DNA of 64,000 nucleotides, taken from contig OZ287759.1 in assembly GCA_965649765.1 (NCBI GenBank), forward strand, positions 23,374,001 through 23,438,000, given 5' to 3'. Positions 1-47,915 of the stretch are shown piece by piece. Below the pieces are notes generated by a model. That model had not been told where the DNA came from. It saw only the letters and a program-made list of their open reading frames with translations, and did no database searches. The stretch is from Bispira polyomma. Taxonomy: Eukaryota. Positions within the stretch are counted from its first letter, which is position 1, and each line of letters opens with the position of its first letter. Position numbers and translations under genes: made by a program.

Positions 1-215
1 TTAACCAATAAGGTAGTCCAAAAAGCATAGCAATGGTTGTAAGGAAGGATGTGATGGTGTACAGGGATGGAATTAAGGGGGTAAGTGAGTTCAAATAGAT
101 AAGCTTTTCCTTAACCCAGAAAGTGTTTCCAGTGATCTAAGCTCAACAGGGAGACTATCTTATAACATTAGGGCAGCAATTGAGAAAGCTCTAGAACCAG
201 CCTGCTTGGTAGGTT
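1..215 (-). mobile_element. L2/CR1-like LINE 3' fragment (representative copy; one lies behind the donor of 24 of the 28 array exons)
   Basis: Minus strand reads ...[34 protein letters not shown]..., matching the GxRAFSVAAPxLWNSLP...LKTYLF C-terminus of L2/CR1-group ORF2. Confidence 0.75.
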
Positions 216-239
216 TTTATTAAGTTTATTTGTACTTAC

Positions 240-344
240 TGACACACTCAGCTCCTGTGGAACTGGGTACTTTGCCACTGCCACAAGCCGTACAGGTCTC
301 AAAGTCATCACATACGGTACAGTCTTCCATGGCAGTGCCACAGG
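240..344 (-). CDS. Repeat exon type [35 protein letters not shown] (last exon in window)
   Basis: 105 bp, ag...gtaagt. Downstream intron matches the ones at 6960-7200 and 19160-19398, so the array continues beyond the edge. Confidence 0.88.
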
Positions 345-3300: not shown

Positions 3301-6300
3301 TTGTTTTAATTAAATTTTTTTTTTACAAAAATTATATTGTTGTTTTAAATCATAGTTACAGTGTTGATGCCTTGACAGATATTATCCCTGATACTGACAT
3401 TAGCCTTCAACTGGCATTTAACCTTGACCTGACACCGCTTGACCTGACATTAGAATTGGCTTGTTATTAGACTCGGCTTAATATATACCTTGACCTGGCA
3501 TACACTTATACACTTGACATTAACCTTGACCTGACATCCTTGACCTGACATTAGACTTGGCCTGGCATTATATTTGAGACATTAACCTTCACCTGACATT
3601 AACCTTGACCTAACATCCTTCACCTGACATTAGACTTGACCTGACATCCTTGACCTGACATTAGATTTGACATAGCATTATATTTGAGACATTAACCTTG
3701 ACCTGACATTAGATTTGACCAGACGTTAGACTTAACTTGATATACACCTTGACCTGGCATTATACTTGGCATTAGATTTGACCTTTAAACTTGACTTCAG
3801 TATTTTATACAATTATTAGCGGTCCAATGTTTATACCTGCTGTGACATAAAAGACAAACACAACTTTTCTAATAAACTGAAAAATGGTACCATCATCATA
3901 TATATTACATGTACTTACTTGTTTTCACTGAAGTTTAGGGAAACCTCTATCACTTGTCTTGAGAGTCGTAATCTATGCACTGTTCAATAAGTAATTTCAA
4001 TGCAATCATATAGATAAGCTGACAAAATATTTTTATGCTTGTAAATGTAGATAGCATTTTAACAGCGTCTCCATGGCACTCATCTTGATTCCAGGACTTA
4101 GCTGACAGTTATTGCCATCTCTGGCTTGACATTGACAACAAGAATGTTGAAGCTACTTAGTCATTGTAGAATTGTAATTTGGAAACTTAGGTATCAGACA
4201 GCTGACTTTGTTCTGATGGATCCCTCAAAATAAAGATTTACCCCAACAAGGGACGAATTAGATACAATTTTAATAAGAAGTGTTAAAAACAGTATGAACT
4301 TACTAACACATTCCGCTCCTGTAGAACTGGGTACTTTACTGCTGTCACAAGCTGTACAGGTTTGGTAGTCACTACACGTGTTACAGTCTGTCATCACACT
4401 GTCACATGCTTTAACAAACACAAGATATGTCTTCATATATGTCAAAATCTACTAAATCTAGGTACAATTTCATAATATGACTTTCATTTTCTAATATCTT
4501 AGGTAGTCCAGCGAACAAGATTGCTTCATATATATTAATTAACTGCTTTTGTATATTATATTTTGTATTATTAATATACCATATTGATGCGAGACATCTT
4601 CTATAGTGCAATAACAGAATCAATTAACTAATAAAGAAGTCCTAAAAGCATAGTAAAACTTGTAAAGAAGGATATGGTGTACAGAGAGCAAATTAAGGGG
4701 GTAAGTGAGTTTGAAGAGATACGTTTAAAGTTTTTTCCTAAACCCAGAAAGTGTTTCTAGTGATCTAAGCTCAACAGGGAGCCTATTCCCTATCATAAGG
4801 GCAGCAATTGAGAAAGATATCGATCCAGAATTCTAGGTAGGTTTCTCTTTAGTCGATTTGTACTTACTGACACACTCGGCTCCTGTAGAGCTGGGTACTT
4901 TGCTGCTGTCACAAGCCGTACAGGTGTCAAAGTCATCACACGTGTTACAGTCTGTCATCACACTGGCACAGGCTTTAACAAACACAAGATATGTATTCAT
5001 ATATGTCAAAATCTACTAAATCTAGGTACAATTTCATAATATGACTTTCATTTTCTAATATCTTAGGTAGTCCAGCGAACAAGATTGCTTCATATATAAT
5101 AATTAACTGCTTTTGTATATTATATTTTGCATTATTAATATACCTTACTGATGCGAGACATCTTCTATAGCGCAATAACAGAATCAATTAACTAATAAAG
5201 AAGTCCTAAAAGCATAGTGAAACTTGTAAAGAAGGATATGGTGTACAGAGAGCAAATTAAGGGGGTAAGTGAGTTTGAAGAGATACGTTTAAAGTTTTTT
5301 CCTAAACCTAGAAAGTGTTTCTAGTGATCTAAGCTCAACAGGGAGTCTATTCTCTATCATAAGGGCACCAATTGAGAAAGATATCGATCCAGAATTCTAG
5401 GTAGGTTTCTCTTTAGTCGATTTGTACTTACTGACACACTCGGCTCCTGTAGAGCTGGGTACTTTGCTGCTGTCACAAGCCGTACAGGTGTCAAAGTTAT
5501 CACACGTGTTACAGTCTGTCATCACACTGGCACAGGCTTTAACAAACACAAGATATAACGTCATATATGTCATAGCCTAGGTACATATTTAAAAAAACAT
5601 TTTTAAACTTAAAATTTCTAATTTCTTAGGTAGCTCAGTCAAAAGGCTTGCTTTATACATATTAATCAGGAAATGCTATTTTTAGAATTTTTTTTGTATT
5701 TTGTTTTAAATATATCTTATTGATGTGAGGCATCTTCTAAAGTGCAAAATCACAATCACTTAACCAATAAAGAAGTTCAAAGAGCATAGCAAACATTGTA
5801 AATGAGGATGTTGTGGTGTACAGGGAGGTAATTAAAGGGGTAAGTGACTTTAAAGAGGTAAGGTTTAAGTTTTTCCTGAACCCAGTAAGTACAGGGGGGG
5901 ACAGCAATTCGTGGTGGACAGCATTTCACTATAAATGTGGTTATTACACCTAATCACTGTATAATATTCATTTTAAAGGAATTATTTTCGCATTATAAGA
6001 TTTATATAACATACACATGCCTACACCACAAATATATAGAATACTGTCTGCCTAAATAAATTTTAAATGAATTTAAAGTACCAACACAGCTAAATAAACA
6101 GTAGTACTGCACAAAATTTGAGGTTGATGATTAGACAGTACTAATGATTGGCTATTGGGCTGTATTAGGGTTTCTTTTCTGTTTCTCATATTATGTATCG
6201 TGTACATAAACTATTTCATAATATAATTATTATTGTTAATAAAAGTTATACGTAATATTTTAATCTAAATATTTACTATTGTTTGAAAATGGCGAAATGC

Positions 6301-9300
6301 TGTCCACTTCTAATCTATATTAACCTAGTGACTTTACTTTCTAACTTCTGGTTAAAATTCATCGGAAGTACCTTAATGTATCTAGATACGAGTCAGATTT
6401 ATATGCAATGGAATGACCTCCACAAATTACCAGTTAATTGCCTCAACATTATTTCCTTTTGCTCATATTTGTTAAATTTCCGTGAATTTCAAGCGAATCG
6501 CTATCCCCCCTTGTATTTCCAGTGATCTAATCTCAACAGGAAGACTATTTCATAACATAAGGCAGCAATTGAGAAAGGTCTAGATCCAGCACACCTGGTA
6601 TGTTTTTATTTAGTTTATTTAATTTAGTACTTACTGACACACTCTGCGCCTGTAGAACTGGGTACTTTGCTGCTGTCACAAACCGTACAGGTCTCAAAGT
6701 CATCACATGTGTTACAGTCTGTCATCACACTGGCACAGGCTTTAACAAACACAAGATATAACTTCATATATGCCATTGTCCAGGTACATATTCACAGACA
6801 TTTTAAGACTTTCATTTTATAATTCCATATATACGTAGTTCAGGCAAAAAGCTTACTTCATGCATATTAATCAGCCAATGTTATTTTTGCAATTTTTGTA
6901 TTTTGTTTTAAACATACCTTATTATTGCAAGGCATCATTTAAAATGCAACATCACAATCAATTAACCAATAGGGTAGTCCAAAAAGCATAGCAATGGTTT
7001 TAAGGAAGGATGTGATGGTGTACAGGGATGGAATTAAGGGGTTAAGTGAGTTCAAATAGATAAGCTTTTCCTTAACCCAGAAAGTGTTTCCAGTGATCTA
7101 AGCTCAACAGGGAGACTATCTTATAACATTAGGGCAGCAATTGAGAAAGCTCTAGAACCAGCCTGCTTGGTAGGTTTTTATTAAGTTTATTTGTACTTAC
7201 TGACACACTCAGCTCCTGTGGAACTGGGTACTTTGCCACTGCCACAAGCCGTACAGGTCTCAAAGTCATCACATGTGTTACAGTCTGTCATAACACTGGC
7301 ACAGGCTTTAACAAACACAAGATATAACTTCATATATGCCATTGTCCAGGTACATATTCACAGACATTTTAAGACTTTCATTTTATAATTCCATATATAT
7401 GTAGTTCAGCCAAAAAGCTTACTTCATGCATATTAATCAGCCAATGTTATTTTTGCAATTTTTGTATTTTGTTTTAAACATACCTTATTATTGCAAGGCA
7501 TCATTTAAAGTGCAACATCACAATCAATTAACCAATAGGGTAGTCCAAAAAGCATAGCAATGGTTTTAAGGAAGGATGTGATGGTGTACAGGGATGGAAT
7601 TAAGGGGTTAAGTGAGTTTAAATAGATAAGCTTTTCCTTAACCCAGAAAGTGTTTCCAGTGATCTAAGCTCAACAGAGAGACTATCTTATAACATTATTA
7701 GGGCAGCAATTGAGAAAGCTCTAGAACCAGCCTGCTTGGTAGGTTTTTATTAAGTTTATTTGTACTTACTAACACACATGTCTCCTGTAGAACTGGGTAC
7801 TTTGCTGTTGTCACAAGCCGTACAGGTGTTGTAGTCAGTGCACATGTTACAGTCTGTCATTGCACTGGCACAGGCTGTGACATAAATAGGCAACACAAAA
7901 CTATCATGATTAGTATTACTGAAACATTTAATTCATAGCATCCTGTTGATATATCATCCTCAAAGCTACTCATTTTCTGAAAAAGATAGTCCTGCAACAA
8001 AACTTTGGTTGTCATTAGTACACAATTCATTTAATTTACTTTAATTTTCACTCTTGTATACATGTAGTTAATTATATATTTTAGACTTTAATTAGACTTT
8101 AATTTGCAGGATAATTTTCCAATTTGTTTTAATTAAATTTTTTTTTTACAAAAATTATATTGTTGTTTTAAATCATAGTTACAGTGTTGATGCCTTGACA
8201 CTGATATTATCCCTGACACTGACATTAGCCTTCAACTGGCATTTAACCTTGACCTGACACCGCTTGACCTGACATTAGAATTGGCTTGTTATTAGACTCG
8301 GCTTAATATATACCTTGACCTGGCATACACTTATACACTTGACATTAACCTTGACCTGACATCCTTGACCTGACATTAGACTTGACCTGACATTATATTT
8401 GAGACATTAACCGTGACCTGACATTAACCTTGACCTAACATCCTTCACCTGACATTAGACTTGACCTGACATCCTTGACCTGACATTAGATTTGACATGG
8501 CATTATATTTGAGACATTAACCTTCATCTGACATTAACCTTGACCTAACATCCTTCACCTAACATTAGACTTAACCTGACATCCTTGACCTGACATTAGA
8601 TTTGACATGGCATTATATTTGAGACATTAACCTTGACCTGACATTAGATTTGACCAGACGTTAGACTTAACTTGATATACACCTTGACCTGGCATTATAC
8701 TTGGCATTAGATTTGACCTTTAAACTTGACTTCAGTATTTTATACAATTATTAGCGGTCCAATGTTTATACCTGCTGTGACATAAAAGACAAACACAACT
8801 TTTCTAATAAACTGAAAAATGGTACCATCATCATATATATTACATGTACTTACTTGTTTTCACTGAAGTTTAGGAAAACCTCTATCACTTGTCTTGAGAG
8901 TCGTAATCTATGCACTGTTCAATAAGTAATTTCAATGCAATCATATAGATAAGCTGACAAAATATTTTTATGCTTGTAAATGTAGATAGCATTTTAACAG
9001 CGTCTCCATGGCACTCATCTTGATTCCAGGACTTAGCTGACAGTTATTGCCATCTCTGGCTTGACATTGACAACAAGAATGTTGAAGCTACTTAGTCATT
9101 GTAGAATTGTAATTTGGAAACTTAGGTATCAGACAGCTGACTTTGTTCTGATGGATCCCTCAAAATAAAGATTTACCCCAACAAGGGATGAATTAGATAC
9201 AATTTTAATAAGAAGTGTTAAAAACAGTATGAACTTACTAACACATTCCGCTCCTGTAGAACTGGGTACTTTACTGCTGTCACAAGCTGTACAGGTTTGG

Positions 9301-12300
9301 TAGTCACTACACGTGTTACAGTCTGTCATCACACTGTCACATGCTTTAACAAACACAAGATATGTCTTCATACATGTCAAAATCTACTAAATCTAGGTAC
9401 AATTTCATAATATGACTTTCATTTTCTAATATCTTAGGTAGTCCAGCGAACAAGATTGCTTCATATATATTAATTAACTGCTTTTGTATATTATATTTTG
9501 TATTATTAATATACCATATTGATGCGAGACATCTTCTATAGTGCAATAACAGAATCAATTAACCAATAAAGAAGTCCAAAAAGCATAGTGAAACTTGTAA
9601 AGAAGGATATGGTGTACAGAGAGCAAATTAAGGGGGTAAGTGAGTTTGAAGAGATACGTTTAAAGTTTTTTCCTAAACCCAGAAAGTGTTTCTAGTGATC
9701 TAACCCCAACAGGGAGTCTATTCCATATCATAAGGGCACCAATTGAGAAAGATATCGATCCAGAATTCTAGGTAGGTTTCTCTTTAGTCGATTTGTACTT
9801 ACTGACACACTCGGCTCCTGTAGAGCTGGGTACTTTGCTGCTGTCACAAGCCGTACAGGTGTCAAAGTCATCACACGTGTTACAGTCTGTCATCACACTG
9901 GCACAGGCTTTAACAAACACAAGATATGTATTCATATATGTCAAAATCTACTAAATCTAGGCACAATTTCATAATATAACTTTCATTTTCTAATATCTTA
10001 GGTAGTCCAGCGAACAAGATTGCTTCATATATAATAATTAACTGCTTTTGTATATTATATTTTGCATTATTAATATACCTTATTGATGCGAGACATCTTC
10101 TATAGCGCAATAACAGAATCAATTAACTAATAAAGAAGTCCTAAAAGCATAGTGAAACTTGTAAAGAAGGATATGGTGTACAGAGAGCAAATTAAGGGGG
10201 TAAGTGAGTTTGAAGAGATACGTTTAAAGTTTTTTCCTAAACCCAGAAAGTGTTTCTAGTGATCTAAGCTCAACAGGGAGTCTATTCCCTATCATAAGGG
10301 CACCAATTGAGAAAGATATCGATCCAGAATTCTAGGTAGGTTTCTCTTTAGTCGATTTGTACTTACTGACACACTCGGCTCCTGTAGAGCTGGGTACTTT
10401 GCTGCTGTCACAAGCCGTACAGGTGTCAAAGTCATCACACGTGTTACAGTCTGTCATCACACTGGCACAGGCTTTAACAAACACAAGATATGTATTCATA
10501 TATGTCAAAATCTACTAAATCTAGGTACAATTTCATAATATAACTTTCATTTTCTAATATCTTAGGTAGTCCAGCGAACAAGATTGCTTCATATATAATA
10601 ATTAACTGCTTTTGTATATTATATTTTGCATTATTAATATACCTTATTGATGCGAGACATCTTCTATAGCGCAATAACAGAATCAATTAACTAATAAAGA
10701 AGTCCTAAAAGCATAGTGAAACTTGTAAAGAAGGATATGGTGTACAGAGAGCAAATTAAGGGGGTAAGTGAGTTTGAAGAGATACGTTTAAAGTTTTTTC
10801 CTAAACCCAGAAAGTGTTTCTAGTGATCTAAGCTCAACAGGGAGTCTATTCCCTATCATAAGGGCACCAATTGAGAAAGATATCGATCCAGAATTCTAGG
10901 TAGGTTTCTCTTTAGTCGATTTGTACTTACTGACACACTCGGCTCCTGTAGAGCTGGGTACTTTGCTGCTGTCACAAGCCGTACAGGTGTCAAAGTCATC
11001 ACACGTGTTACAGTCTGTCATCACACTGTCACAGGCTTTAACAAACACAAGATATGTATTCATATATGTCAAAATCTACTAAATCTAGGTACAATTTCAT
11101 AATATGACTTTCATTTTCTAATATCTTAGGTAGTCCAGCGAACAAGATTGCTTCATATATAATAATTAACTGCTTTTGTATATTATATTTTGCAATATTA
11201 ATATACCTTATTGATGCGAGACATCTTCTATAGCGCAATAACAGAATCAATTAACTAATAAAGAAGTCCTAAAAGCATAGTGAAACTTGTAAAGAAGGAT
11301 ATGGTGTACAGAGAGCAAATTAAGGGGGTAAGTGAGTTTGAAGAGATACGTTTAAAGTTTTTTCCTAAACCTAGAAAGTGTTTCTAGTGATCTAACCCCA
11401 ACAGGGAGTCTATTCCCTATCATAAGGGCATCAATTGAGAAAGATATCGATCCAGAATTCTAGGTAGGTTTCTCTTTAGTCGATTTGTACTTACTGACAC
11501 ACTCGGCTCCTGTAGAGCTGGGTACTTTGCTGCTGTCACAAGCCGTACAGGTGTCAAAGTCATCACACGTGTTACAGTCTGTCATCACACTGGCACAGGC
11601 TTTAACAAACACAAGATATAACGTCATATATGTCATAGCCTAGGTACATATTTAAACAAACATTTTTAAACTTGAAATTTCTAATTTCTTAGGTAGCTCA
11701 GTCAAAAGGCTTGCTTTATACATATTAATCAGGAAATGCTATTTTTAGAATTTTTTTTGTATTTTGTTTTAAATATATCTTATTGATGTGAGGCATCTTC
11801 TAAAGTGCAAAATCACAATCACTTAACCAATAAAGAAGTTCAAAGAGCATAGCAAACATTGTAAATGAGGATGTTGTGGTGTACAGGGAGGTAATTAAAG
11901 GGGTAAGTGACTTTAAAGAGGTAAGGTTTAAGTTTTTCCTGAACCCAGTAAGTACAGGGGGGGACAGCAATTCGTGGTGGACAGCATTTCACTATAAATG
12001 TGGTTATTACACCTAATCACTGTATAATATTCATTTTAAAGGAATTATTTTCGCATTATAAGATTTATATAACATACACATGCCTACACCACAAATATAT
12101 AGAATACTGTCTGCCTAAATAAATTTTAAATGAATTTAAAGTACCAACACAGCTAAATAAACAGTAGTACTGCACAAAATTTGAGGTTGATGATTAGACA
12201 GTACTAATGATTGGCTATTGGGCTGTATTAGGGTTTCTTTTCTGTTTCTCATATTATGTATCGTGTACATAAACTATTTCATAATATAATTATTATTGTT

Positions 12301-15300
12301 AATAAAAGTTATACGTAATATTTTAATCTAAATATTTACTATTGTTTGAAAATGGCGAAATGCTGTCCACTTCTAATCTATATTAACCTAGTGACTTTAC
12401 TTTCTAACTTCTGGTTAAAATTCATCGGAAGTACCTTAATGTATCTAGATACGAGTCAGATTTATATGCAATGGAATGACCTCCACAAATTACCAGTTAA
12501 TTGCCTCAACATTATTTCCTTTTGCTCATATTTGTTAAATTTCCGTGAATTTCAAGCGAATCGCTATCCCCCCTTGTATTTCCAGTGATCTAATCTCAAC
12601 AGGAAGACTATTTCATAACATAAGGCAGCAATTGAGAAAGGTCTAGATCCAGCACACCTGGTATGTTTTTATTTAGTTTATTTAATTTAGTACTTACTGA
12701 CACACTCTGCGCCTGTAGAACTGGGTACTTTGCTGCTGTCACAAACCGTACAGGTCTCAAAGTCATCACATGTGTTACAGTCTGTCATCACACTGGCACA
12801 GGCTTTAACAAACACAAGATATAACTTCATATATGCCATTGTCCAGGTACATATTCACAGACATTTTAAGACTTTCATTTTATAATTCCATATATACGTA
12901 GTTCAGCCAAAAAGCTTACTTCATGCATATTAATCAGCCAATGTTATTTTTGCAATTTTTGTATTTTGTTTTAAACATGTCTTATTATTGCAAGGCATCA
13001 TTTAAAATGCAACATCACAATCAATTAACCAACAGGGTAGTCCAAAAAGCATAGCAATGGTTTTAAGGAAGGATGTGATGGTGTACAGGGATGGAATTAA
13101 GGGGTTAAGTGAGTTTAAATAGATAAGCTTTTCCTTAACCCAGAAAGTGTTTCCAGTGATCTAAGCTCAACAGGGAGACTATCTTATAACATAAGGCAGC
13201 AATTGAGAAAGGTCTAGATCCAGCACACCTGGTATGTTTTTATTTAGTTTATTTAATTTAGTACTTACTGACACACTCTGCGCCTGTAGAACTGGGTACT
13301 TTGCTGCTGTCACAAACCGTACAGGTCTCAAAGTCATCACATGTGTTACAGTCTGTCATAACACTGGCACAGGCTTTAACAAACACAAGATATAACTTCA
13401 TATATGCCATTGTCCAGGTACATATTCACAGACATTTTAAGACTTTCATTTTATAATTCCATATATATGTAGTTCAGCCAAAAAGCTTACTTCATGCATA
13501 TTAATCAGCCAATGTTATTTTTGCAATTTTTGTATTTTGTTTTAAACATACCTTATTATTGCAAGGCATCATTTAAAGTGCAACATCACAATCAATTAAC
13601 CAATAGGGTAGTCCAAAAAGCATAGCAATGGTTTTAAGGAAGGATGTGATGGTGTACAGGGATGGAATTAAGGGGTTAAGTGAGTTTAAATAGATAACTT
13701 TTCCTTAACCCAGAAAGTGTTTCCAGTGATCTAAGCTCAACAGAGAGACTATCTTATAACATTATTAGGGCAGCAATTGAGAAAGCTCTAGAACCAGCCT
13801 GCTTGGTAGGTTTTTATTAAGTTTATTTGTACTTACTAACACACATGTCTCCTGTAGAACTGGGTACTTTGCTGTCGCTACAAGCCGTACAGGTCTCAAA
13901 GTCATCACATGCGGTACAGCTTTCCATTGCAGTGCCACAGGCTTTTAAAACAAAAATTATACAAAGAGTCCTATCAATTTATTAATTGTAAATGTATTAC
14001 ATGAAATGCTTGCCACTAATATGACATCAACAACAAAAAATCAGCATCACTTCTTTAGGTTGTATATTCATGTTTTGACATGGATATACTTGACAGTGTA
14101 ATAACATTAATGTTAAAAGTTCTTCAGTGTTATGATGTCACCCAGTAATGCCAATTGTGATTAAAGTCTAAAACAAGGTGCAGTAGTACATTATGACTGG
14201 AAAACAAACTTTTGTACTTAATCTATAACAAGAGGAAAGTGACCTTGCGGTCACAAATCTCGGAGACATGTATCTTTTTCTCAAGCTGTCTACCTAAAAG
14301 TAAACTAATATTATCTGTCAATGTATAAGTTACAACCAAAAAAAATCTGTCTACCGGTCTACCTATAACCTAAAATACAATTGTCAATAGATAAGTTACA
14401 AAAAAGGAAATTATTTGACAACCTTTGACAAGTTAAAAAATTTTTTTTTTAATTTTTTGATTGAAGGTAATTTTTTATGGTTTAGGGTTTAGGGGAGTTA
14501 GCCATCATTCTTTAGCCTATGTATCTCTTACACTTAAAGTTAGGGTTTAGGTTTAGGGCTTAGGGGAGTTAGTCATGATTCTTTAGCCTAAATATCTGTT
14601 ACACATAAAGTTAGATATAGTCCCCTAACCCCTTAAGCCTAAAATAATTTCGACCTGACAGCTTATGTTTCTTAAATAATTAAAAAATTAATCTACCTGT
14701 CGACCTAACTATATTATTATACAGCTAGTCCATAATTTAAGGATAAGATCCTGACATACCACAGAATACATGCAATATAAAAAATACCCATGGCTACATT
14801 GTTCACACTTACTAATACAAGTGGCTCCTGTAGAACTTGTTACTTTACTACTGTCACAAGCTGTACAGGTTTGGTGGTTAGTGCAGAATTAATAAGCCAA
14901 TAGAGAAGTCTAAAAAGCATTGCGAAGGTTGTAAAGAAGGACAGGGGAGCGTACAAGGAGGAAATTAAAGGGGTAAGTGAGGTTAAAGAGATAAATTTTG
15001 CTTTTTCCTCAACCCAGAAAGTGTTTCTAGTAATTTGAGCTCAACAGGCAGACTCTTCCATAACAATAGCAATTTAGAAAGATCTAGATTCAGCTCTGTT
15101 GGTATGTTTTTATTTAGTTTAAATGTACTTACTGACACACTCGGCTCCTGTAGAACTGGGTACTTTGCTGCTGTCACAAGCCGTACAGGTGTTGTAGTCA
15201 GTGCACATGTTACAGTCTGTCATTGCACTGGCACAGGCTGTGACATAAATAGGCAACACAAAACTATCATGATTAGTATTACTGAAACATTTAATTCACA

Positions 15301-18300
15301 GCATCCCGTTGATATATCATCCTCAAAGCTACTCATTTTCTGAAAAAGATAGTCCTGCAACAAAACTTTGGTTGTCATTAGTACACAATTCATTTAATTT
15401 ACTTTAATTTTCACACATATATACATGTAGTTAATTATATATTTTAGACTTCAATTAGACTTTAATTTGCAGGATAATTTTCCAATTTGTTTTAATTAAA
15501 TTTTTTTTTTACAAAAATTATATTGTTGTTTGCTGTTTTAAATCATAGTTACAGTGTTGATGCCTTGACACTGATATTATCCCTGACACTGACATTAGCC
15601 TTCAACTGGCATTTAACCTTGACCTGACACCGCTTGACCTGACATTAGAATTGGCTTGTTATTAGACTCGGCTTAATATATACCTTGACCTGGCATACAC
15701 TTATACACTTGACATTAACCTTGACCTGACATCCTTGACCTGACATTAGACTTGACCTGGCATTATATTTGAGACATTAACCTTGACCTGACATTAACCT
15801 TGACCTAACATCCTTCACCTGACATTAGACTTGACCTGACATCCTTGACCTGACATTAGATTTGACATGGCATTATATTTGAGACATTAACCTTGACCTG
15901 ACATTAGATTTGACCAGACGTTAGACTTAACTTGATATACACCTTGACCTGGCATTATACTTGGCATTAGATTTGACCTTTAAACTTGACTTCAGTATTT
16001 TATACAATTATTAGCGGTCCAATGTTTATACCTGCTGTGACATAAAAGACAAACACAACTTTTCTAATAAACTGAAAAATGGTACCATCATCATATATAT
16101 TACATGTACTTACTTGTTTTCACTGAAGTTTAGGAAAACCTCTATCACTTGTCTTGAGAGTCGTAATCTATGCACTGTTCAATAAGTAATTTCAATGCAA
16201 TCATATAGATAAGCTGACAAAATATTTTTATGCTTGTAAATGTAGATAGCATTTTAACAGCGTCTCCATGGCACTCATCTTGATTCCAGGACTTAGCTGA
16301 CAGTTATTGCCATCTCTGGCTTGACATTGACAACAAGAATGTTGAAGCTACTTAGTCATTGTAGAATTGTAATTTGGAAACTTAGGTATCAGACAGCTGA
16401 CTTTGTTCTGATGGATCCCTCAAAATAAAGATTTACCCCAACAAGGGATGAATTAGATACAATTTTAATAAGAAGTGTTAAAAACAGTATGAACTTACTA
16501 ACACATTCCGCTCCTGTAGAACTGGGTACTTTACTGCTGTCACAAGCTGTACAGGTTTGGTAGTCACTACACGTGTTACAGTCTGTCATCACACTGTCAC
16601 ATGCTTTAACAAACACAAGATATGTCTTCATACATGTCAAAATCTACTAAATCTAGGTACAATTTCATAATATGACTTTCATTTTCTAATATCTTAGGTA
16701 GTCCAGCGAACAAGATTGCTTCATATATATTAATTAACTGCTTTTGTATATTATATTTTGTATTATTAATATACCATATTGATGCGAGACATCTTCTATA
16801 GTGCAATAACAGAATCAATTAACCAATAAAGAAGTCCAAAAAGCATAGTGAAACTTGTAAAGAAGGATATGGTGTACAGAGAGCAAATTAAGTGGGTAAG
16901 TGAGTTTGAAGAGATACATTTAAAGTTTTTTCCTAAACCCAGAAAGTGTTTCTAGTGATCTAAGCTCAACAGGGAGCCTATTCCATATCATGAGGGCAGC
17001 AATTGAGAAAGATATCGATCCAGAATTCTAGGTAGGTTTCTCTTTAGTCGATTTGTACTTACTGACACACTCGGCTCCTGTAGAGCTGGGTACTTTGCTG
17101 CTGTCACAAGCCGTACAGGTGTTAAAGTCATCACACGTGTTACAGTCTGTCATCACACTGGCACAGGCTTTAACAAACACAAGATATGTATTCATATATG
17201 TCAAAATCTACTAAATCTAGGTACAATTTCATAATATGACTTTCATTTTCTAATATCTTAGGTAGTCCAGCGAACAAGATTGCTTCATATATAATAATTA
17301 ACTGCTTTTGTATATTATATTTTGCATTATTAATATACCTTATTGATGTGAGACATCTTCTATAGCGCAATAACAGAATCAATTAACTAATAAAGAAGTC
17401 CTAAAAGCATAGTGAAACTTGTAAATAAGGATATGGTGTACAGAGAGCAAATTAAGGGGGTAAGTGAGTTTGAAGAGATACGTTTAAAGTTTTTTCCTAA
17501 ACCCAGAAAGTGTTTCTAGTGATCTAACCCCAACAGTGAGTCTATTCCATATCATAAGGGCAGCAATTGAGAAAGATATCAATCCAGAACTCTAGGTAGG
17601 TTTCTCTTTAGTCGATTTGTACTTACTGACACACTCGGCTCCTGTAGAACTGGGTACTTTGCTGCTGTCACAAACCGTACAGGTGTCAAAGTCATCACAT
17701 GTGGTACAGTCTGTCATCACACTGGCACAGGCTTTAACAAACACAAGATATAACTTCATATATGCCATAGCCTAGGTACATATTTAAACAAACATTTTAA
17801 AACTTGAAATTTCTAATTTCTTAGGTAGCTCAGTCAAAAGGCTTGCTTTATACATTTTAATCAGGAAATGCTATTTTTAGAATTTTTTTTGTATTTTGTT
17901 TTAAATATATCTTATTGATGTGAGGCATCTTCTAAAGTGCAAAATCACAATCACTTAACCAATAAAGAAGTTCAAAGAGCATAGCAAATATTGTAAATGA
18001 GGATGTTGTGGTGTACAGGGAGGTAATTAAAGGGGTAAGTGACTTTAAAGAGGTAAGGTTTAAGTTTTTCCTGAACCCAGTAAGTACAGGGGGGGACAGC
18101 AATTCGTGGTGGACAGCATTTCACTATAAATGTGGTTATTACACCTAATCACTGTATAATATTCATTTTAAAGGAATTATTTTCGCATTATAAGATTTAT
18201 ATAACATACACATGCCTACACCACAAATATATAGAATACTGTCTGCCTAAATAAATTTTAAATGAATTTAAAGTACCGACACAGCTAAATAAACAGTAGT

Positions 18301-21300
18301 ACTGCACAAAATTTAAGGTTGATGATTAGACAGTACTAATGATTGGCTATTGGGCTGTACTGGGGTTTCTTTTCTGTTTCTCATATTATGTATCGTGTAC
18401 ATAAACTATTTCATAATATAATTATTATTGTTAATAAAAGTTATACGTAATATTTTAATCTAAATATTTACTATTGTTTGAAAATGGCGAAATGCTGTCC
18501 ACTTCTAATCTATATTAACCTAGTGACTTTACTTTCTAACTTCTGGTTAAAATTCATCGGAAGTACCTTAATGTATCTAGATACGAGTCAGATTTATATG
18601 CAATGGAACGACCTCCACAAATTACCAGTTAATTGCCTCAACATTATTTCCTTTTGCTCATATTTGTTAAATTTCCGTGAATTTCAAGCGAATCGCTATC
18701 CCCCCTTGTATTTCCAGTGATCTAATCTCAACAGGAAGACTATTTCATAACATAAGGCAGCAATTGAGAAAGGTCTAGATCCAGCACACCTGGTATGTTT
18801 TTATTTAGTTTATTTAATTTAGTACTTACTGACACACTCTGCGCCTGTAGAACTGGGTACTTTGCTGCTGTCACAAACCGTACAGGTCTCAAAGTCATCA
18901 CATGTGTTACAGTCTGTCATAACACTGGCACAGGCTTTAACAAACACAAGATATAACTTCATATATGCCATTGTCCAGGTACATATTCACAGACATTTTA
19001 AGACTTTCATTTTATAATTCCATATATACGTAGTTCAGCCAAAAAGCTTACTTCATGCATATTAATCAGCCAATGTTATTTTTGCAATTTTTGTATTTTG
19101 TTTTAAACATACCTTATTATTGCAAGGCATCATTTAAAGTGCAACATCACAATCAATTAACCAATAGGGTAGTCCAAAAAGCATAGCAATGGTTTTAAGG
19201 AAGGATGTGATGGTGTACAGGGATGGAATTAAGGGGTTAAGTGAGTTTAAATAGATAAGCTTTTCCTTAACCCAGAAAGTGTTTCCAGTGATCTAAGCTC
19301 AACAGAGAGACTATCTTATAACATTATTAGGGCAGCAATTGAGAAAGCTCTAGAACCAGCCTGCTTGGTAGGTTTTTATTAAGTTTATTTGTACTTACTG
19401 ACACACTCAGCTCCTGTGGAACTGGGTACTTTGCCATTGCCACAAGCCGTACAGGTCTCAAAGTCATCACATGTGGTACAGTCTTCCATGGCAGTGCCAC
19501 AGGCTTTTAAAACAAAAATTATACATAGAGTCCTGTCAATTTATTAATTGTAAATGTATTACATGAAATGCTTGCCAGTAATATGACATCAACAACAAAA
19601 AATCAGCATCACTTATTTAGGTTGTATATTCATGTTTTGACATGGATATACTTGACAGTGTAATAACATTAATGTTAAAACTTCTTCAGTGGTATGATGT
19701 TCCCCGGTAGTGCAAACTGTGATCGAAGTCTAAAACAAGGTGCAGTAGTACATTATGACTGAAATAGAAACTTTTATACTTAATTTATAAAAACCTATGA
19801 ACATTCAGCGGAGATATTTAGAGGCTACTGTGACTTTAAATTATCTGGAACCAGTAAGTCGGTCTGGTGAAAGTGGAGAGAATATTTTATCTTAACAGAT
19901 TGCTAAGAGATATCATACAAAGTAAAATTGTTGGTAAATATAAATAGCCGTAAACTTGATGACAATTAATTTAAATGTAATACAGAATTTGATCGTTAGC
20001 CGTTGGAGGTGTTGAATAAGAAGGGTTATATGAGAGCATGCTTTTGATTTACTTAAATTTTTATCTCTTCCTGTCCAATACCATACAGTTGAAAACTGCA
20101 ATGAGCAAGACACCTTGCAACCAAGGCATTTGCAACAGCAATAAAATTTTCAAATGTGAGATGGCGATATGTTTTTATAATAGCAGCTTAACAGAAAAAT
20201 GACAAAAACATGGAGATTGAAAGTGTCTCCCAGATTGTAACATCATTGGCACAAAAATACAATTGCAAAGGATATTTATCTGAAAAATATTTATGTCATT
20301 TTCCTCTGTGCTTTCGAAAAGTAGTTTTTCTCTTGATTGAACTTTAACTTCCTAATTTTTCGATTTCCTAATTTTTCGTTTTCTTATTTCTTAGGTAGTT
20401 CAGCTAATTAGCTTGTTTCATTCATATCGATCTGCTAATGCTATTTTTATATTGTATTTCACATTTTTAATGTGTTTTTTTGATGTGAGACATCCAGTAA
20501 AGCCGAACAACAAAATCAATAACCCAATAGAGAAGTAAAAAAAGCATAGCGAAGTTCGTAATGAAGGATGTGGGGGTGCCAAGGGGGGAAATTTAGGGGA
20601 TTAATGAGTTTGAAGAGATAAATTTTAAGTGATTTCCTGAACCAAAAAAATGTTTATTGTAATCTAAACTAAACAGGGAGACTATTCCATAACATAAAGG
20701 GTAGCAATTAAGAAAGGTCTGGATCCTGTCCTTGTGGTAGATTTCTATTAAGTTTATTTGTACTTGATTTCTATTAAGTTTATTTGTACTTACTAACACA
20801 CATGTCTCCTGTAGAACTGGGTACTTTGCTGTCGCTACAAGCCATACAGGTCTCAAAGTCATCACATGCGGTACAGTCTTCCATTGCAGTGCCACAGGCT
20901 TTTAAAACAAAAAATATACAGAGTCCTATCAATTTATTAATTGTAAATGTATTACATGAAATGCTTGCCAGTAATATGACATCAACAACAAAAAATCAGC
21001 ATCACTTCTTTAGGTTGTATATTCATGTTTTGACATGGATATACTTGACAGTGTAATAACATTACTGTTAAAAGTTCTTCAGTGTTATGATGTCACCCAG
21101 TAATGCCAATTGTGATTAAAGTCTAAAACAAGGTGCAGTAGTACATTATGACTGGAGAACAAACTTTTGTACTTAATCTATAACAAGAGGAAAGTGACCT
21201 TGCGGTCACAAATCTCGGAGACATGTATCTTTTTCTCAAGCTGTCTACCTAAAAGTATACTAATATTATCTGTCAATGTATAAGTTACAACCAAAAAAAA

Positions 21301-24300
21301 TCTATCTACTGGTCTACCTATAACCTAAAATACAATTGTCAATATATAAGTTACAAAAAAGGAAATTATTTGACAACCTTTGACAAGTTAAAAAATTTTT
21401 TTTTTAATTTTTTGATTGAAGGTAATTTTTTATGGTTTAGGGTTTAGGGGAGTTAGCCATCATTCTTTAGCCTATGTATCTCTTACACTTAAAGTTAGGG
21501 TTTAGGTTTAGGGCTTAGGGGAATTAGCCACCATTCTATAGCCTAAATATCTGTTACACATAAAGTTAGATATAGTCCCCTAACCCCTTAAGCCTAAAAT
21601 AATTTCGACCTGACAGCTTATGTTTCTTAAATAATTAAAAAATTAGTCTACCTGTCGACCTAACTATATTATTATACAGCTAGTCCATAATTTAAGGATA
21701 AGATCCTGACATACCACAGAATACATGCAATATAAAAAAAAACCCATGGCTACATTGTTCACACTTACTAATACAAGTGGCTCCTGTAGAACTTGTTACT
21801 TTACTACTGTCACAAGCTGTACAGGTTTGGTGGTTAGTGCAGAATTAATAAGCCAATAGAGAAGTCTAAAAAACATTGCGAAGGTTGTAAAGAAGGACAG
21901 GGGAGCGTACAAGGAGGAAATTAAAGGGGTAAGTGAGGTTAAAGAGATAAGTTTTGCTTTTTCCTCAACCCAGAAAGTGTTTCTAGTAATTTGAGCTCAA
22001 CAGGCAGACTCTTCCATAACATAAGGGCAACAATTTAGAAAGATCTAGATTCAGCTCTGTTGGTATGTTTTTATTTAGTTTAAATGTACTTACTGACACA
22101 CTCGGCTCTTGTAGAACTGGGTACTTTGCTGCTGTCACAAGCCGTACAGGTGTTATAGTCAGTGCACATGTTACAGTCTGTCATTGCACTGGCACAGGCT
22201 GTGACATAAATAGGCAACACAAAACTATCATGATTAGTATTACTGAAACATTTAATTCACAGTATCCCGTTGATATATCATCCTCAAAGCTACTCATTTT
22301 CTGAAAAAGATAGTCCTGCAACAAAACTTTGGTTGTCATTAGTACACAATTCATTTAATTTACTTTAATTTTCACACATATATACATGTAGTTAATTATA
22401 TATTTTAGACTTCAATTAGACTTTAATTTGCAGGATAATTTTCCAATTTGTTTTAATTAAATTTTTTTTTTACAAAAATTATATTGTTGTTTGCTGTTTT
22501 AAATCATAGTTACAGTGTTGATGCCTTGACACTGATATTATCCCTGACACTGACATTAGCCTTCAACTGGTATTTAACCTTGACCTGACACCGCTTGACC
22601 TGACATTAGAATTGGCTTGTTATTAGACTCGGCTTAATATATACCTTGACCTGGCATACACTTATACACTTGACATTAACCTTGACCTGACATCCTTGAC
22701 CTGACATTAGACTTGACCTGGCATTATATTTGAGACATTAACCTTGACCTGACATTAACCTTGACCTAACATCCTTCACCTGACATTAGACTTGACCTGA
22801 CATCCTTGACCTGACATTAGATTTGACATGGCATTATATTTGAGACATTAACCTTCACCTGACATTAACCTTGACCTAACATCCTTCACCTAACATTAGA
22901 CTTAACCTGACATCCTTGACCTGACATTAGATTTGACATGGCATTATATTTGAGACATTAACCTTGACCTGACATTAGATTTGACCAGACGTTAGACTTA
23001 ACTTGATATACACCTTGACCTGGCATTATACTTGGCATTAGATTTGACCTTTAAACTTGACTTCAGTATTTTATACAATTATTAGCGGTCCAATGTTTAT
23101 ACCTGCTGTGACATAAAAGACAAACACAACTTTTCTAATAAACTGAAAAATGGTACCATCATCATATATATGACATGTACTTACTTGTTTTCACTGAAGT
23201 TTAGGAAAACCTCTATCACTTGTCTTGAGAGTCGTAATCTATGCACTGTTCAATAAGTAATTTCAATGCAATCATATAGATAAGCTGACAAAATATTTTT
23301 ATGCTTGTAAATGTAGATAGCATTTTAACAGCGTCTCCATGGCACTCATCTTGATTCCAGGACTTAGCTGACAGTTATTGCCATCTCTGGCTTGACATTG
23401 ACAACAAGAATGTTGAAGCTACTTAGTCATTGTAGAATTGTAATTTGGAAACTTAGGTATCAGACAGCTGACTTTGTTCTGATGGATCCCTCAAAATAAA
23501 GATTTACCCCAACAAGGGATGAATTAGATACAATTTTAATAAGAAGTGTTAAAAACAGTATGAACTTACTAACACATTCTGCTCCTGTAGAACTGGGTAC
23601 TTTACTGCTGTCACAAGCTGTACAGGTTTGGTAGTCACTACACGTGTTACAGTCTGTCATCACACTGTCACATGCTTTAACAAACACAAGATATGTCTTC
23701 ATATATGTCAAAATCTACTAAATCTAGGTACAATTTCATAATATGACTTTCATTTTCTAATATCTTAGGTAGTCCAGCGAACAAGATTGCTTCATATATA
23801 TTAATTAACTGTTTTTGTATATTATATTTTGCATTATTAATATACCATATTGATGCGAGACATCTTCTATAGTGCAATAACAGAATCAATTAACTAATAA
23901 AGAAGTCCTAAAAGCATAGTGAAACTTGTAAAGAAGGATATGGTGTACAGAGAGCAAATTAAGGGGGTAAGTGAGTTTGAAGAGATACGTTTAAAGTTTT
24001 TTCCTAAACCCAGAAAGTGTTTCTAGTGATCTAAGCTCAACAGGGAGCCTATTCCATATCATGAGGGCAGCAATTGAGAAAGATATCGATCCAGAATTCT
24101 AGGTAGGTTTCTCCTTAGTTGATTTGTACTTACTGACACACTCGGCTCCTGTAGAGCTGGGTACTTTGCTGCTGTCACAAGCCGTACAGGTGTCAAAGTC
24201 ATCACACGTGTTACAGTCTGTCATCACACTGGCACAGGCTTTAACAAACACAAGATATAACGTCATATATGCCATAGCCTAGGTACATATTTAAACAAAC

Positions 24301-27300
24301 ATTTTAAAACTTGAAATTTCTAATTTCTTAGGTAGCTCAGTCAAAAGGCTTGCTTTATACATATTAATCAGGAAATGCTATTTTTAGAATTTTTTTTGTA
24401 TTTTGTTTTAAATATATCTTATTGATGTGAGGCATCTTCTAAAGTGCAAAATCACAATCACTTAACCAATAAAGAAGTTCAAAGAGCATAGCAAACATTG
24501 TAAATGAGGATGTTGTGGTGTACAGGGAGGTAATTAAAGGGGTAAGTGACTTTAAAGAGGTAAGGTTTAAGTTTTTCCTGAACCCAGGAATTATTTCCAG
24601 TGATCTAATCTCAACAGAAAGACTATTTCATAACATAAGGCAGCAATTGAGAAAGGTCTAGATCCAGCACACCTGGTATGTTTTTATTTAGTTTATTTAA
24701 TTTAGTACTTACTGACACACTCTGCGCCTGTAGAACTAGGTACTTTGCTGCTGTCACAAACCGTACAGGTGTCAAAGTCATCACATGTGTTACAGTCTTC
24801 CATGGCAGTGCCACAGGCTTTTAAAACAAAAATTATACATAGAGTCCTGTCAATTTATTAATTGTAAATGTATTACATGAAATGCTTGCAACTAATATAA
24901 CACCAACAACAAAAAATCAGCATCACTTCTTTAGCTTGTATATTCATGTTTTGACATGGATATACTTGACAGTGTAATAACACTAATGTTAAAACTTGTA
25001 TGATGTTCCCCGGTAGTGCAAATTGTAATCGAAATCTAAAACAAGGTGCAGTAGTACATTATAACTGAAATACAAACTTTTATACTTAATCTATAAAAAC
25101 CTATGAACATTCAGCGGAGATATTTAGAAGCTACTGTGACTTTAAATTATCTGGAACCAGTAAGTCGGTCTGGTAAAGGTGGAGAGAATATTTTATCTTG
25201 ATAGATTGCTGAGAGATATCATACAAAGTGAAATTGTTGGTAAATATGAATAGCCGTAAACTTGATGACAATAAATTTAAATGTAATACAGAATTTGATC
25301 ATTACCCATTGGAGGTGTTGAATAAGAGGGGTTATATGAGAGCATGCTTTTGATTTACTTTAGTTTTTATATCTTTCTGTCCAATACCATACAGTTGAAA
25401 ACTGCAATGAGCAAGACACCTTGCAACCAAGGCATTTACAACAGCAATAGAATTTTTAAATGTGAGATGTGTTTTTAAAGTAGCAGCATTAGCAAACCAA
25501 AAATAATTACAACATGGTTATTAATGATAGCTCTGAGATTTGGACATCATTCACAAGAAAATGCTATTGCGGAGGAGATTTACATAAAAAACTTTTTACA
25601 CATTTTTCTTTTGTGCTTTCGAGCCAATTAGTAAAACAACATTTTCCTCTTGATTTTACTTTAATGTCCCAATTATTTAATTCCGTACTTTTTCATTTTC
25701 TAATTTCTAAGGTTGTTCAGACAATAAGCATGCTTCATACATATTAATTAGCCAATGTTATTTTTATATTTATTGTTATGTAATTTTAATGTGCCTTATT
25801 GATGTGAGGCATCTTCTAAAGCACAGCAACAGAATCATTTAACCAATAGAGAAGTCTAAAAAACATAACAGAGGTTGTAACACGGGATTAAGGGTTAAGC
25901 AAGTTTAAACAAGGTAGGAGAAGGTGTTTCAAATGATCCAAGCTCAACAGGGAGACTATTCCATAACACAACGGCTGCAATTTAGAAAGCTCTAGATCCA
26001 GCCCTCTTGGTAGGTTTATATTTAGTTTTGCAACCCTAGCCGAACATATTAAATTAAAGAATGAATAAAGGGAGCCTTAACCCAAATTACAACCACAAGA
26101 ACGCTCCTATTCAAAATGTAACTTCTTATGTTTAGCAGGGAACCATTCAGTGAAAAACAGAGATCCCGCCATTTTGTTTTGCACAATGTGTCACAAAGAC
26201 ATATGAAAGCTTGGAGAGATAAAATAATGAACATTAACATTCCTTTAGTGATAGACAACGGCTATGGCTAGGAATACAGGTCCTTATTTGGCTCACATTT
26301 TGTACACGATTAGAGGAGCCAGCCCATTCACTGTATATAGCAGTGGTAAAAGCATTTTTCCTGATTATAAATAGGACTATATTAGTTGCATACATTTCAC
26401 ATTTTCTGTCCATAAATATCCGCCAACTGCCATTACGATCCAACCTATATTATGAGCACCCTTAAAAATAATAAATGTTGTTTATTTAAATATTGTTGTT
26501 TCCTGTTGCAAAATGTTAGTAATATTGCCCAGTAACACACTCTACTCCAGTAGATTTGGATATTTAAATTTTTGGTCACAAACTGGGGGTCGCGATGTCC
26601 TAATGGTTGTAAGTGTTTGCTTTAATATCACTATCCCATTATTTCTGGGAGGTCAAGATCCCCACAACCGTTAAAAAGTCCATTTGCTGAAGCTGTAGTA
26701 AACTCAAGTCTAACAACCACATTGTACCTTTTATGTGTTTTCTTCCATTTGATAATAATAATAGAAACATTGATATAGCGCAACATTGATCAGAATCCTC
26801 TAATGCGCTGATTTCCAAAAGGGGATTGCATAGATTGTCACCCAGTCAGCGCCAACCAGGGAGTAACTAAGGTCGAGGATACACCAGTCTTAACAAGTGA
26901 GTCTTGAGCTGGCTTCGAAAACCTGATATTGTCTGCTGTGATCTTACCTTTTGTGGCAACCTTTTCCATTGTACCAGTGTAGCAACAGCAAATACACAAT
27001 ACCTGGATCCGCCTATGCTTCAGATACTTCATGTAAGTTATTGGTTTTTAGTACAAAATCCTACACAATAAGGATTTTTTTGTGTGCAGTTCCTTTTGAA
27101 CATGTTTTTGATTTGAAACCTGAAGGACAAGGGTGGCAATTCTCCTATGGCTAAATATGTTGAAAGTGACATATAACTCAGATTCAAATTATTGTCATTG
27201 AATATAATTGTACAACGTTGATGGTCAGTACTATCTGCTACTGTATTGGAGCATGGTTTTTTTGCCTGCTAGAAACACTAGATATTAACAACCAAACAAA

Positions 27301-47285: not shown

Positions 47286-47680
47286 TTATATTTCTTATTT
47301 TTACCACTCTGCATAAAGACCACTTGTTCATGTATCTTAGGAGACTAATGTTTAATAATATTCAACCTCTATAAAAGAACATCTGTCAATAAAGACCACT
47401 TTAGAGGGTTACCTTGTGTGGTCTTTGTATACAAGTTTTACTGTGTATTATTGATGCTTTTTTACATTGTTCATGGTCAGTAAAGGTATGGTCTTTGAGG
47501 TGCCTAAATTCAGCCTTCCACCTCAGCAGAGAATGCCCACTCTGCTCTGGCTTGATCGAAGAAGCTATACATGCAGATTCAGGTAGTTTAAGAGTTGATG
47601 TGCAGCATTTGACAACCAATCTCCCAGAACATTTAGGTTTCCTAGAATATGTCTTGTCCATATCTAGATGTTTTTTTTTT

Positions 47681-47915
47681 AATTGGGATATCTAACGTTC
47701 ACTCTAGTACCTGTTTAGGTTATATCGGGACAGGTAGTTGGAAACACTAAAGGAAACACTGCATACAGTTGATCAAGGTTCTGCACTGAAACCAGCGGCA
47801 TACAGTAAGGAACTACCACCTTTCCCACATAGGCATCGACAGGAGTCGAACTCACGCCACCCAGAGGTGAGATTGTGAAGCGCAATGCTTGCTAACCACT
47901 AGGCCACCGCGGCCC
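47681..47915 (-). mobile_element. tRNA-derived SINE, family 1
   Basis: Reverse complement of the 40851 copy; degenerate TSD tatctagatgt / tgtctggatgt. Confidence 0.9.

What the first reader, a model, noticed from the sequence alone, without database searches (positions are those of the whole stretch)
1..26030. Higher-order repeat grammar of the array (A-B-h-D-F-Cn-E)
Seen: left to right the exon types read A B h D F C C E [E/A] [D/B] F C C C C E E B h D F C C E A B h D F C [A/E]. A ~7 kb master block (B 13837 to 20794 = 6957 bp; D 15133 to 22094 = 6961 bp) recurs about four times with deletions. Inside it the 564-bp C unit has 2, 4, 2 and 1 copies. Blocks differ by only scattered SNPs. Inference: recent or ongoing unequal crossing-over at two scales, predicting strong copy-number polymorphism of a coding VNTR between alleles.
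Basis: partly seen in the sequence, partly recalled or inferred. Interest (0 to 1): 0.7.

Follow-up and report, generated by a model that had tools for sequence, protein, structure and literature searches.

The report
Nested exon repeats lengthen surface protein
An animal gene carries 31 near-copies of one small cysteine-rich exon, arranged as repeats within five larger repeats; they likely arose by uneven chromosome exchange and would lengthen the stalk of a predicted cell-surface protein, a known kind of gene repeat here found in an unnamed family.

Summary
In detail: exon order, 6957/6961-bp spacings and C counts 2-4-2-1 are exact. The array lies in a minus-strand gene (model: 45 exons, 1610 aa, no stop): signal peptide, a head predicted to be beta-trefoil-like, 40 frame-neutral six-cysteine exons, hydrophobic tail. 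The recent array runs 2.6 kb past the window: 31 exons, five blocks, 28.6 kb. Blocks differ by 0.8-1.4% plus indels; the six unit types share only 70-84% of their introns. Four of five irregular junctions switch template inside an exon or at its donor, so unequal exchange is well supported. Corrections: 'h' is a dead half-exon; the C counts need only about two or three events; a 110-bp intronic repeat adds a third scale. Contig depth in three public runs is 0.7-1.35 of what the assembly predicts (stitched haplotypes predict about 0.5), so an artefact is unlikely. Polymorphism between individuals remains untested. A distant paralogue has only three full repeats. Same kind as NBPF/Olduvai triplets, the nebulin triplicate and SmPoMuc; the protein family seems unnamed.

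The parts
1..26028 (-). Recent higher-order array, 28 full exons inside the window; it continues to about 2,570 bases left of the window (3 more exons, fifth block); 28.6 kb in all
13837..20793 (-). The one complete 7-exon master block (6957 bp): A, E, C, C, F, D, B with introns b, a, e, c, c, f, d
9239..11599 (-). F plus four C units, 564-bp period; the youngest unit-scale expansion (introns at 10930 and 10366 differ at 1 of 459 sites)
7770..7874 (-). Chimeric D/B exon; template switch between exon positions 66 and 67; removes intron d
   Evidence: 0 misfit sites with parents D15133 and B13837
7201..7305 (-). Chimeric E/A exon; switch at exon positions 31-58; one-unit duplication
13374..13941 (-). 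B exon joined to an a-type intron; switch between exon position 104 and about 23 nt into the intron; drops b and A
12803..13373 (-). E exon with a hybrid e/a intron; switch about 71-79 nt past the donor, inside the shared dispersed-repeat remnant
21769..21841 (-). h: dead 3' part of an F-like exon without acceptor, inside intron d (also at 14813, 2622 and left of the window)
18087..18708 (.). 622-bp high-copy insertion with imperfect terminal inverted repeats and TA on both sides (MITE-like); in all three e introns, absent from the outermost unit (24239-24712)
22667..22977 (.). 110-bp intronic tandem repeat in intron f (2.8 copies here and at 8336; 1.8 at 3511 and 15706): a third repeat scale
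23880..24110 (-). Dispersed repeat remnant (3' tail of a LINE-like element) on the donor side of c introns; homologous pieces in a, b, d, e
   Evidence: 4851 candidates; 79-83% to copies on other contigs
24818..26028 (-). Exon-less b-type intron relic forming the 5' edge of the array (81% to 19504-20755)
30125..30229 (-). Older, divergent six-cysteine exon (exon 5)
31395..31694 (-). Exon 4 (300 nt): predicted two subdomains of a beta-trefoil-like head; 11 unnamed homologues
34799..34945 (-). Exon 3 (147 nt): inferred first subdomain of the head
36318..36366 (-). Exon 2: end of predicted signal peptide
42514..42546 (-). Exon 1 coding part with ATG, start of predicted signal peptide

Best explanation
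This is a real nested array of frame-neutral exons, likely built by repeated unequal crossing-over and gene conversion, in the stalk of a predicted membrane-anchored surface protein. Shown: 31 exons of 105 nt (phase 1-1), six unit types, five blocks, single-switch chimeras. Inferred history: (1) one exon plus about 460 nt of intron holding a LINE-like tail was copied in tandem and diverged into types A-F; (2) a MITE-like element entered intron e, one exon died (h) and C doubled; (3) the 6-7-exon block was copied to five; (4) out-of-register exchanges, mostly in the exons because they are the best-matching sequence between types, deleted or added whole units, and C went from 2 to 4 in one block. 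Any such exchange between equivalent positions keeps whole exons and the frame, so the likely effect is only a longer or shorter stalk under a beta-trefoil-like head. Length polymorphism among individuals is predicted, not shown.
For: Open model of 1610 aa; 43 of 44 acceptors end in AG as first cut and the remaining one has an in-frame AG 3 nt upstream; all donors GT. Cys pattern kept in 31 of 31 units; dN/dS 0.47 between the six types. Exons 84% identical between types against 48-59% in aligned flanks; 3 of 5 irregular junctions switch inside the exon, 1 at the donor, 1 in the intron remnant (binomial P about 0.05 and 0.01 against a rough exon share). The 12 informative sites among five blocks give 7 different, incompatible pairings. 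The five C>C introns group together (94/97 support) apart from the five C>F introns. No N in the array; longest exact repeat 1232 bp. Depth of 14 array contigs over flank depth, divided by the multiplicity expected from the assembly: medians 0.73, 1.11, 1.35 for X1, X2, X3; X1+X2 pooled 0.83-0.90. Both b copies appear as contigs; 52 of 53 tested alternative letters are paralogue differences of the assembly. Paralogue on contig C6 has the same layout with 3 full and 3 short Cys exons.
Against: No transcript evidence was obtained, so splicing of all 40 repeat exons is inferred; most array acceptors are the weaker AAG type. Contig depth is a crude measure (tool warning): X1 alone gives 0.70-0.77 and one X3 contig 2.03. 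The chimeric junctions themselves were not checked against reads. No second allele was seen, so ongoing change is not shown. The five junctions are few and their parents were chosen by hand; with another parent the E/C switch maps 55 nt upstream of the exon. Recent private exon changes are mostly non-synonymous (5 of 6 sites), so selection on the young copies is not shown. Head fold: best Z 6.4, under the usual threshold of 8, and no Foldseek match at E<=0.001.
Confidence: 0.8

Rival explanations
1. Assembly artefact: two shorter haplotype arrays were joined in tandem.
For: Block divergence of about 1% resembles allelic divergence in many invertebrates (general knowledge). X1 depth ratio is 0.70-0.77. 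No listed contig spans the array.
Against: Five mutually distinct f introns; no N gap; exact repeats no longer than 1232 bp; X2 and X3 ratios 1.04-2.03 where stitching predicts about 0.5. The flank shows no alternative substitutions over 25.4-41.5 kb and one contig crosses exon 4 at flank depth in X1 and X2, so there is no sign of a second, different haplotype to stitch.
Confidence: 0.07
2. The array is real but the young copies are mostly skipped or selectively neutral: it grows by recombination in a gene that tolerates any repeat number, or is decaying.
For: Dead exon relics exist (h four times, a frameshifted copy about 3.1 kb left of the window, the exon-less relic at 24818-26028). Private recent changes are mostly non-synonymous. 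The paralogue has only 3 full repeats.
Against: 31 of 31 units keep six Cys, frame and splice sites; exons are far better conserved than introns between types; dN/dS 0.47. Conversion could produce part of that conservation.
Confidence: 0.25
3. The array arose in one or a few replication-based events (template switching, rolling-circle reinsertion) and is now fixed, not a crossover-driven length polymorphism.
For: All block pairs lie in a narrow band, 0.84-1.36%. No variant allele in three runs. One paper reports equal NBPF triplet copy numbers in 20 human genomes (PMC9584774, passages), so such arrays need not look polymorphic.
Against: Divergence of like introns spans 0 to 2.5% (c up to 4.1%), junctions fall at homologous positions, and shared variants are incompatible with one tree: several rounds of homology-guided exchange.
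Confidence: 0.12

Closest known systems
NBPF / Olduvai (DUF1220) triplet higher-order repeat (PMC9584774, passages)
   Same: Coding monomers made of exon plus intron, about 17-19% apart, grouped in a higher-order block whose copies are about 1% apart, with canonical and non-canonical copies.
   Different: Here 6 types, one 105-nt exon per monomer, 6.4-7 kb block, five copies with only one complete; no sequence relation claimed; single-copy gene with a predicted secreted, anchored product.
Nebulin triplicate region, exons 82-105 (PMC12402328, passages)
   Same: Intragenic multi-exon block (8 exons, 10 kb, three times, 99% identity) in a repeat protein; in-frame gains and losses.
   Different: Copy-number variation is documented there, not here; here a second, unit-scale expansion and chimeric exons sit inside the blocks.
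Schistosoma SmPoMuc exon-2 genomic repeats (PMC2576457, passages)
   Same: Invertebrate gene in which one small exon with its flanking introns is tandemly repeated (about 1 kb, up to 20 times), with unequal crossing-over and conversion proposed.
   Different: SmPoMuc is a multigene mucin family with 27-nt exons and one monomer scale; here a single gene, 105-nt Cys-rich exons and a higher-order block.
CXXC-rich anchored surface proteins of protists, e.g. Entamoeba Igl (PMC4564812, passages); Giardia VSP and furin-like repeats (recalled)
   Same: About 150 kDa, many CXXC motifs, signal peptide and C-terminal anchor.
   Different: No sequence match was found (Pfam); here one repeat per exon and a predicted beta-trefoil-like head; resemblance of architecture only.

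Membership tests
Coding higher-order repeat (NBPF/NEB type) | Monomers much more divergent than blocks | tested here: met
   Introns 70-84% alike between types; blocks 0.84-1.36% apart
Coding higher-order repeat (NBPF/NEB type) | Blocks in tandem, same orientation, in one gene, frame kept | tested here: met
Coding higher-order repeat (NBPF/NEB type) | Three or more canonical blocks in tandem (definition in PMC9584774) | tested here: not met
   Only 13837-20793 is a complete 7-exon cycle; the other four carry deletions, chimeras or array ends. It works like a HOR but is mostly non-canonical.
Coding VNTR | Copy number differs between alleles or individuals | tested here: inconclusive
   Three runs, at most two samples of one study, show no second allele; contigs drop variants
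Coding VNTR | Repeat exons are in the mRNA | not testable with these tools
   No RNA run was available to lay; frame and selection evidence only
Furin-like / VSP / Igl CXXC repeat proteins | Profile match to the family | tested here: inconclusive
   Single 32-37-aa exons: none of 16 matches such a family, best E 0.0057 to an unrelated one; PDB sequences best E 0.29; multi-repeat queries were not run
Beta-trefoil (ricin-B-like) lectins | Beta-trefoil fold | tested here: inconclusive
   Exon 4 alone, pLDDT 77.6 (best of five; others 47-64): top hit Difoil-4P Z 6.4, rmsd 2.5, 72 aligned; the 50 rows listed are beta-trefoil proteins as far as I recall them; Foldseek E 1.7
Beta-trefoil (ricin-B-like) lectins | Sugar-binding residues / QxW motifs | not tested
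   No Pfam match; the alignment shows one conserved W only
GPI-anchored proteins | Signal peptide, no internal membrane segment, small residues then a hydrophobic C-terminal tail | tested here: inconclusive
   Only two hydrophobic peaks, at residues 1-25 and 1586-1610; paralogue ends alike; no dedicated predictor run

The most novel reading that the evidence does not exclude
An undescribed animal family of anchored beta-trefoil recognition proteins whose reach is set by a recombining exon array: this member would be hypervariable in stalk length (3 repeats in the paralogue, 40 here) through exon-targeted crossovers and exon skipping, acting as a polymorphic immune or self/non-self surface receptor.
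Probability: 0.15. Interest if true: 0.7.

Novelty: new member of a known kind. Interest (0 to 1): 0.42.

Why it matters
It is an unusually legible, gap-free record of how a repeat protein grows: old divergent exons at both ends, middle-aged monomers, young blocks and crossover points mapped down to one base. It gives an invertebrate counterpart to NBPF and nebulin arrays, and points to an unnamed surface-protein family. If length alleles segregate, the locus makes the rate of intragenic unequal exchange and selection on stalk length directly measurable.

Tried and rejected
C-type lectin reading of the head (my first guess from Cys spacing): no support; both models gave beta-trefoil rows. First model was poor (pLDDT 57.7, Z up to 3.9). 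No full-length homologue among longer proteins (weak evidence by the tool's own note); none in JGI metagenome contigs (130 pattern hits, 0 confirmed). The protein atlas gave no result. Pfam: nothing for 6 single exons, 12 head sequences or 16 repeats at a useful E-value. No RNA holder listed. Joints tables were dominated by dispersed repeats and gave nothing on array junctions. h as an exon: rejected, no acceptor and stops in the upstream frame. A/E at 24713 as a simple recent chimera: not resolved (33 misfits, 11 private sites); it lacks the MITE-like insertion and may be close to the ancestor of A and E. Literature searches without hits: (0 papers each); two searches gave nothing on this family. 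No supplements were opened.
Full report
OBSERVATION. A self-comparison of the window shows kilobase direct repeats at 90-98% confined to 1-26028. B13837-B20794 is 6957 bp and D15133-D22094 is 6961 bp. C runs have 2, 4, 2 and 1 copies. The window is G000:C12:23374001-23438000 of a 1.035-Gb, 75-contig genome. Stretches to the left show that the array goes on for about 2.6 kb with three more exons (E/C, F, D) and a fourth h, so there are 31 exons in five blocks over 28.6 kb, with no N.

THE GENE. Reading on in both directions gives a 45-exon model of 1610 aa without a stop: a predicted signal peptide (exons at 42546 and 36366), two head exons (34945-34799, 31694-31395), 40 Cys-rich exons, all phase 1-1, and a last exon 15.4 kb left of the window with a hydrophobic tail. 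Array exons encode 35 residues with the pattern C-x6-C-x2-C-x5-C-x2-C-x12-C. Outside the recent array lie one divergent exon upstream, two array-like and six divergent exons downstream (23-47% identity for the divergent ones). Exon 4 has one match in the genome at E<=0.01, 11 unnamed homologues of 33-54% identity among 1.84 billion representatives and no Pfam match. Its model from 16 sequences (pLDDT 77.6) aligns to two thirds of a beta-trefoil (Difoil-4P, Z 6.4, rmsd 2.5, 72 residues; 11 chains at Z>=5, none at Z>=8; Foldseek best E 1.7, same chain). Exon 3 has the length of the missing third (inference). A distant paralogue on C6, found with exon 5 and confirmed with the head profile (E 1e-5; exon 3 match E 2e-4), has the same layout with 3 full and 3 short Cys exons. 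So the family's head and tail are stable while repeat number is 3 versus 40. Expression is inferred: Cys pattern kept in 31 of 31 units, pN 0.140 against pS 0.265 between types, dN/dS 0.47.

THE GRAMMAR. The 30 introns between array exons fall into six types, c (459 nt), f (1186-1371), d (about 1200, holding h), b (1264-1290), a (about 463) and e (1098), plus the outermost x (474). The transcribed cycle is E e C c (C c) F f D d B b A a; 13837-20793 is the only complete one. Types a, b, c, d, e/x are 70-84% alike over their first 350-600 nt and so descend from one unit of about 570 bp. That unit carries a dispersed repeat (4820 and 4851 candidates genome-wide) whose translation resembles the tail of a LINE-like frame seen nearby (the name L2 for such tails is recalled). 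Intron e is x plus a 622-bp MITE-like insertion. h is the 3' part of an F-like exon with no acceptor. Intron f holds a 110-bp tandem of 1.8 or 2.8 copies.

MECHANISM. Five irregular junctions were mapped against chosen parents: D/B switches between exon positions 66 and 67, E/A at 31-58, E/C at 47-58 (with parent E6635; at -55 with parent E18830), B>a at 104-128, E13269 at 176-184. Exons are 84% identical between types, aligned flanks 48-59%, so exons offer the best out-of-register pairing (inference). An exchange at equivalent positions of symmetric units removes or adds whole exons and keeps the frame. Over a 1906-column core the five blocks differ by 0.84-1.36%, and 12 informative sites give seven incompatible pairings: repeated exchange or conversion. 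Six of 7 variable sites among 9 C exons carry the letter of another type. C>C introns form one group (94/97) apart from C>F introns: C doubled once before three of the blocks multiplied, and one block later went to four; the counts 2-4-2-1 are not independent expansions. The youngest pairs differ at 1 of 459, 2 of 1098 and 0 of 463 sites. No absolute date can be given.

IS IT REAL? Three runs (two samples, one study; Logan contigs) were laid on 17740-27700 and 22200-41500. Eight flank contigs per run have depths 19.6-22.4, 12.8-15.4 and 50-98 with 0 other letters in 23 of 24. I compared 14 of the 15 array contigs listed (one left out because its path could not be rebuilt) with the 31-mer multiplicity expected from the assembly: observed/expected 0.70-0.77 (X1), 1.04-1.20 (X2), 1.04-2.03 (X3); X1+X2, one sample, 0.83-0.90; stitching predicts about 0.5. 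One b copy appears as a contig in X1 and the other, with its five substitutions and 26-bp gap, in X2. Of 53 alternative letters tested, 52 are differences between assembly copies and one lies in the high-copy insertion; three displayed rows beside indels, three outside the array and 94 hidden rows were not tested. The tool warns that contig depth is no copy number, so this is supportive, not proof. The same data show no second allele, and the samples may be the assembled individual: polymorphism is untested.

COMPARISON. NBPF triplets: monomers 17-19% apart, blocks about 1% (PMC9584774, passages). Nebulin: 8 exons, 10 kb, three times, 99% identity, with copy-number variation (PMC12402328, passages). 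SmPoMuc: a 27-bp exon in 1-kb genomic repeats, up to 20 copies (PMC2576457, passages). Entamoeba Igl: 150 kDa, GPI-anchored, many CXXC motifs (PMC4564812, passages). The array works like these; by the strict three-canonical-copy definition it is a mostly non-canonical higher-order repeat. Searches found no description of this protein family; the library lacks most subscription papers. The scan's notes hold nothing for this place and only unrelated nested repeats elsewhere, which did not change the reading.

VERDICT. Real, well explained, a new member of a known kind of intragenic repeat, in a protein family that seems unnamed. Interest 0.42; about 0.7 if stalk length proves hypervariable in a recognition protein (probability 0.15).

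Noticed in passing
G000:C6:25445540-25454883 (L017:5540 to L018:4883, + strand): Distant paralogue: same small and large head exons, 3 full and 3 short Cys exons, hydrophobic tail; its first two repeat exons are a recent 823-bp duplication (86%), and a second copy of the small head exon lies at 25446599.
   Followed up: partly
window 25400-41500: No alternative substitution in any of three runs across 16 kb of flank at 97% likeness (two 1-nt gaps in repeats only): homozygous or hemizygous region, or an effect of contig simplification.
   Followed up: partly
P0001, P0003, P0009: Three head homologues sit on unnamed ENA contigs of the same length (1,843,302), likely a cluster of paralogues in another animal; all hits end at the same exon boundary.
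   Followed up: no
L001 6840-6925: Frameshifted, truncated copy of the Cys exon just upstream of an intact one.
   Followed up: partly
L001 4420-5330, L001 950-1900, L002 about 7100-8700: Several intronic minisatellites (about 35-48 bp units) in the older 3' part of the same gene.
   Followed up: no
window 21150-21760 (also in the other d introns): High-copy insertion with a 71-bp doublet and inverted TTTAGGG-rich arms inside intron d.
   Followed up: partly
L005, about 46.7-49.3 kb left of the window: Two LINE-like reading-frame remnants (441 aa and 184 aa); the shorter ends in the same tail motif as the remnant in the c introns.
   Followed up: no
window 40835-41085 and 47680-47915: Copies of a tRNA-like SINE (very high depth); further copies in L003.
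   Followed up: no
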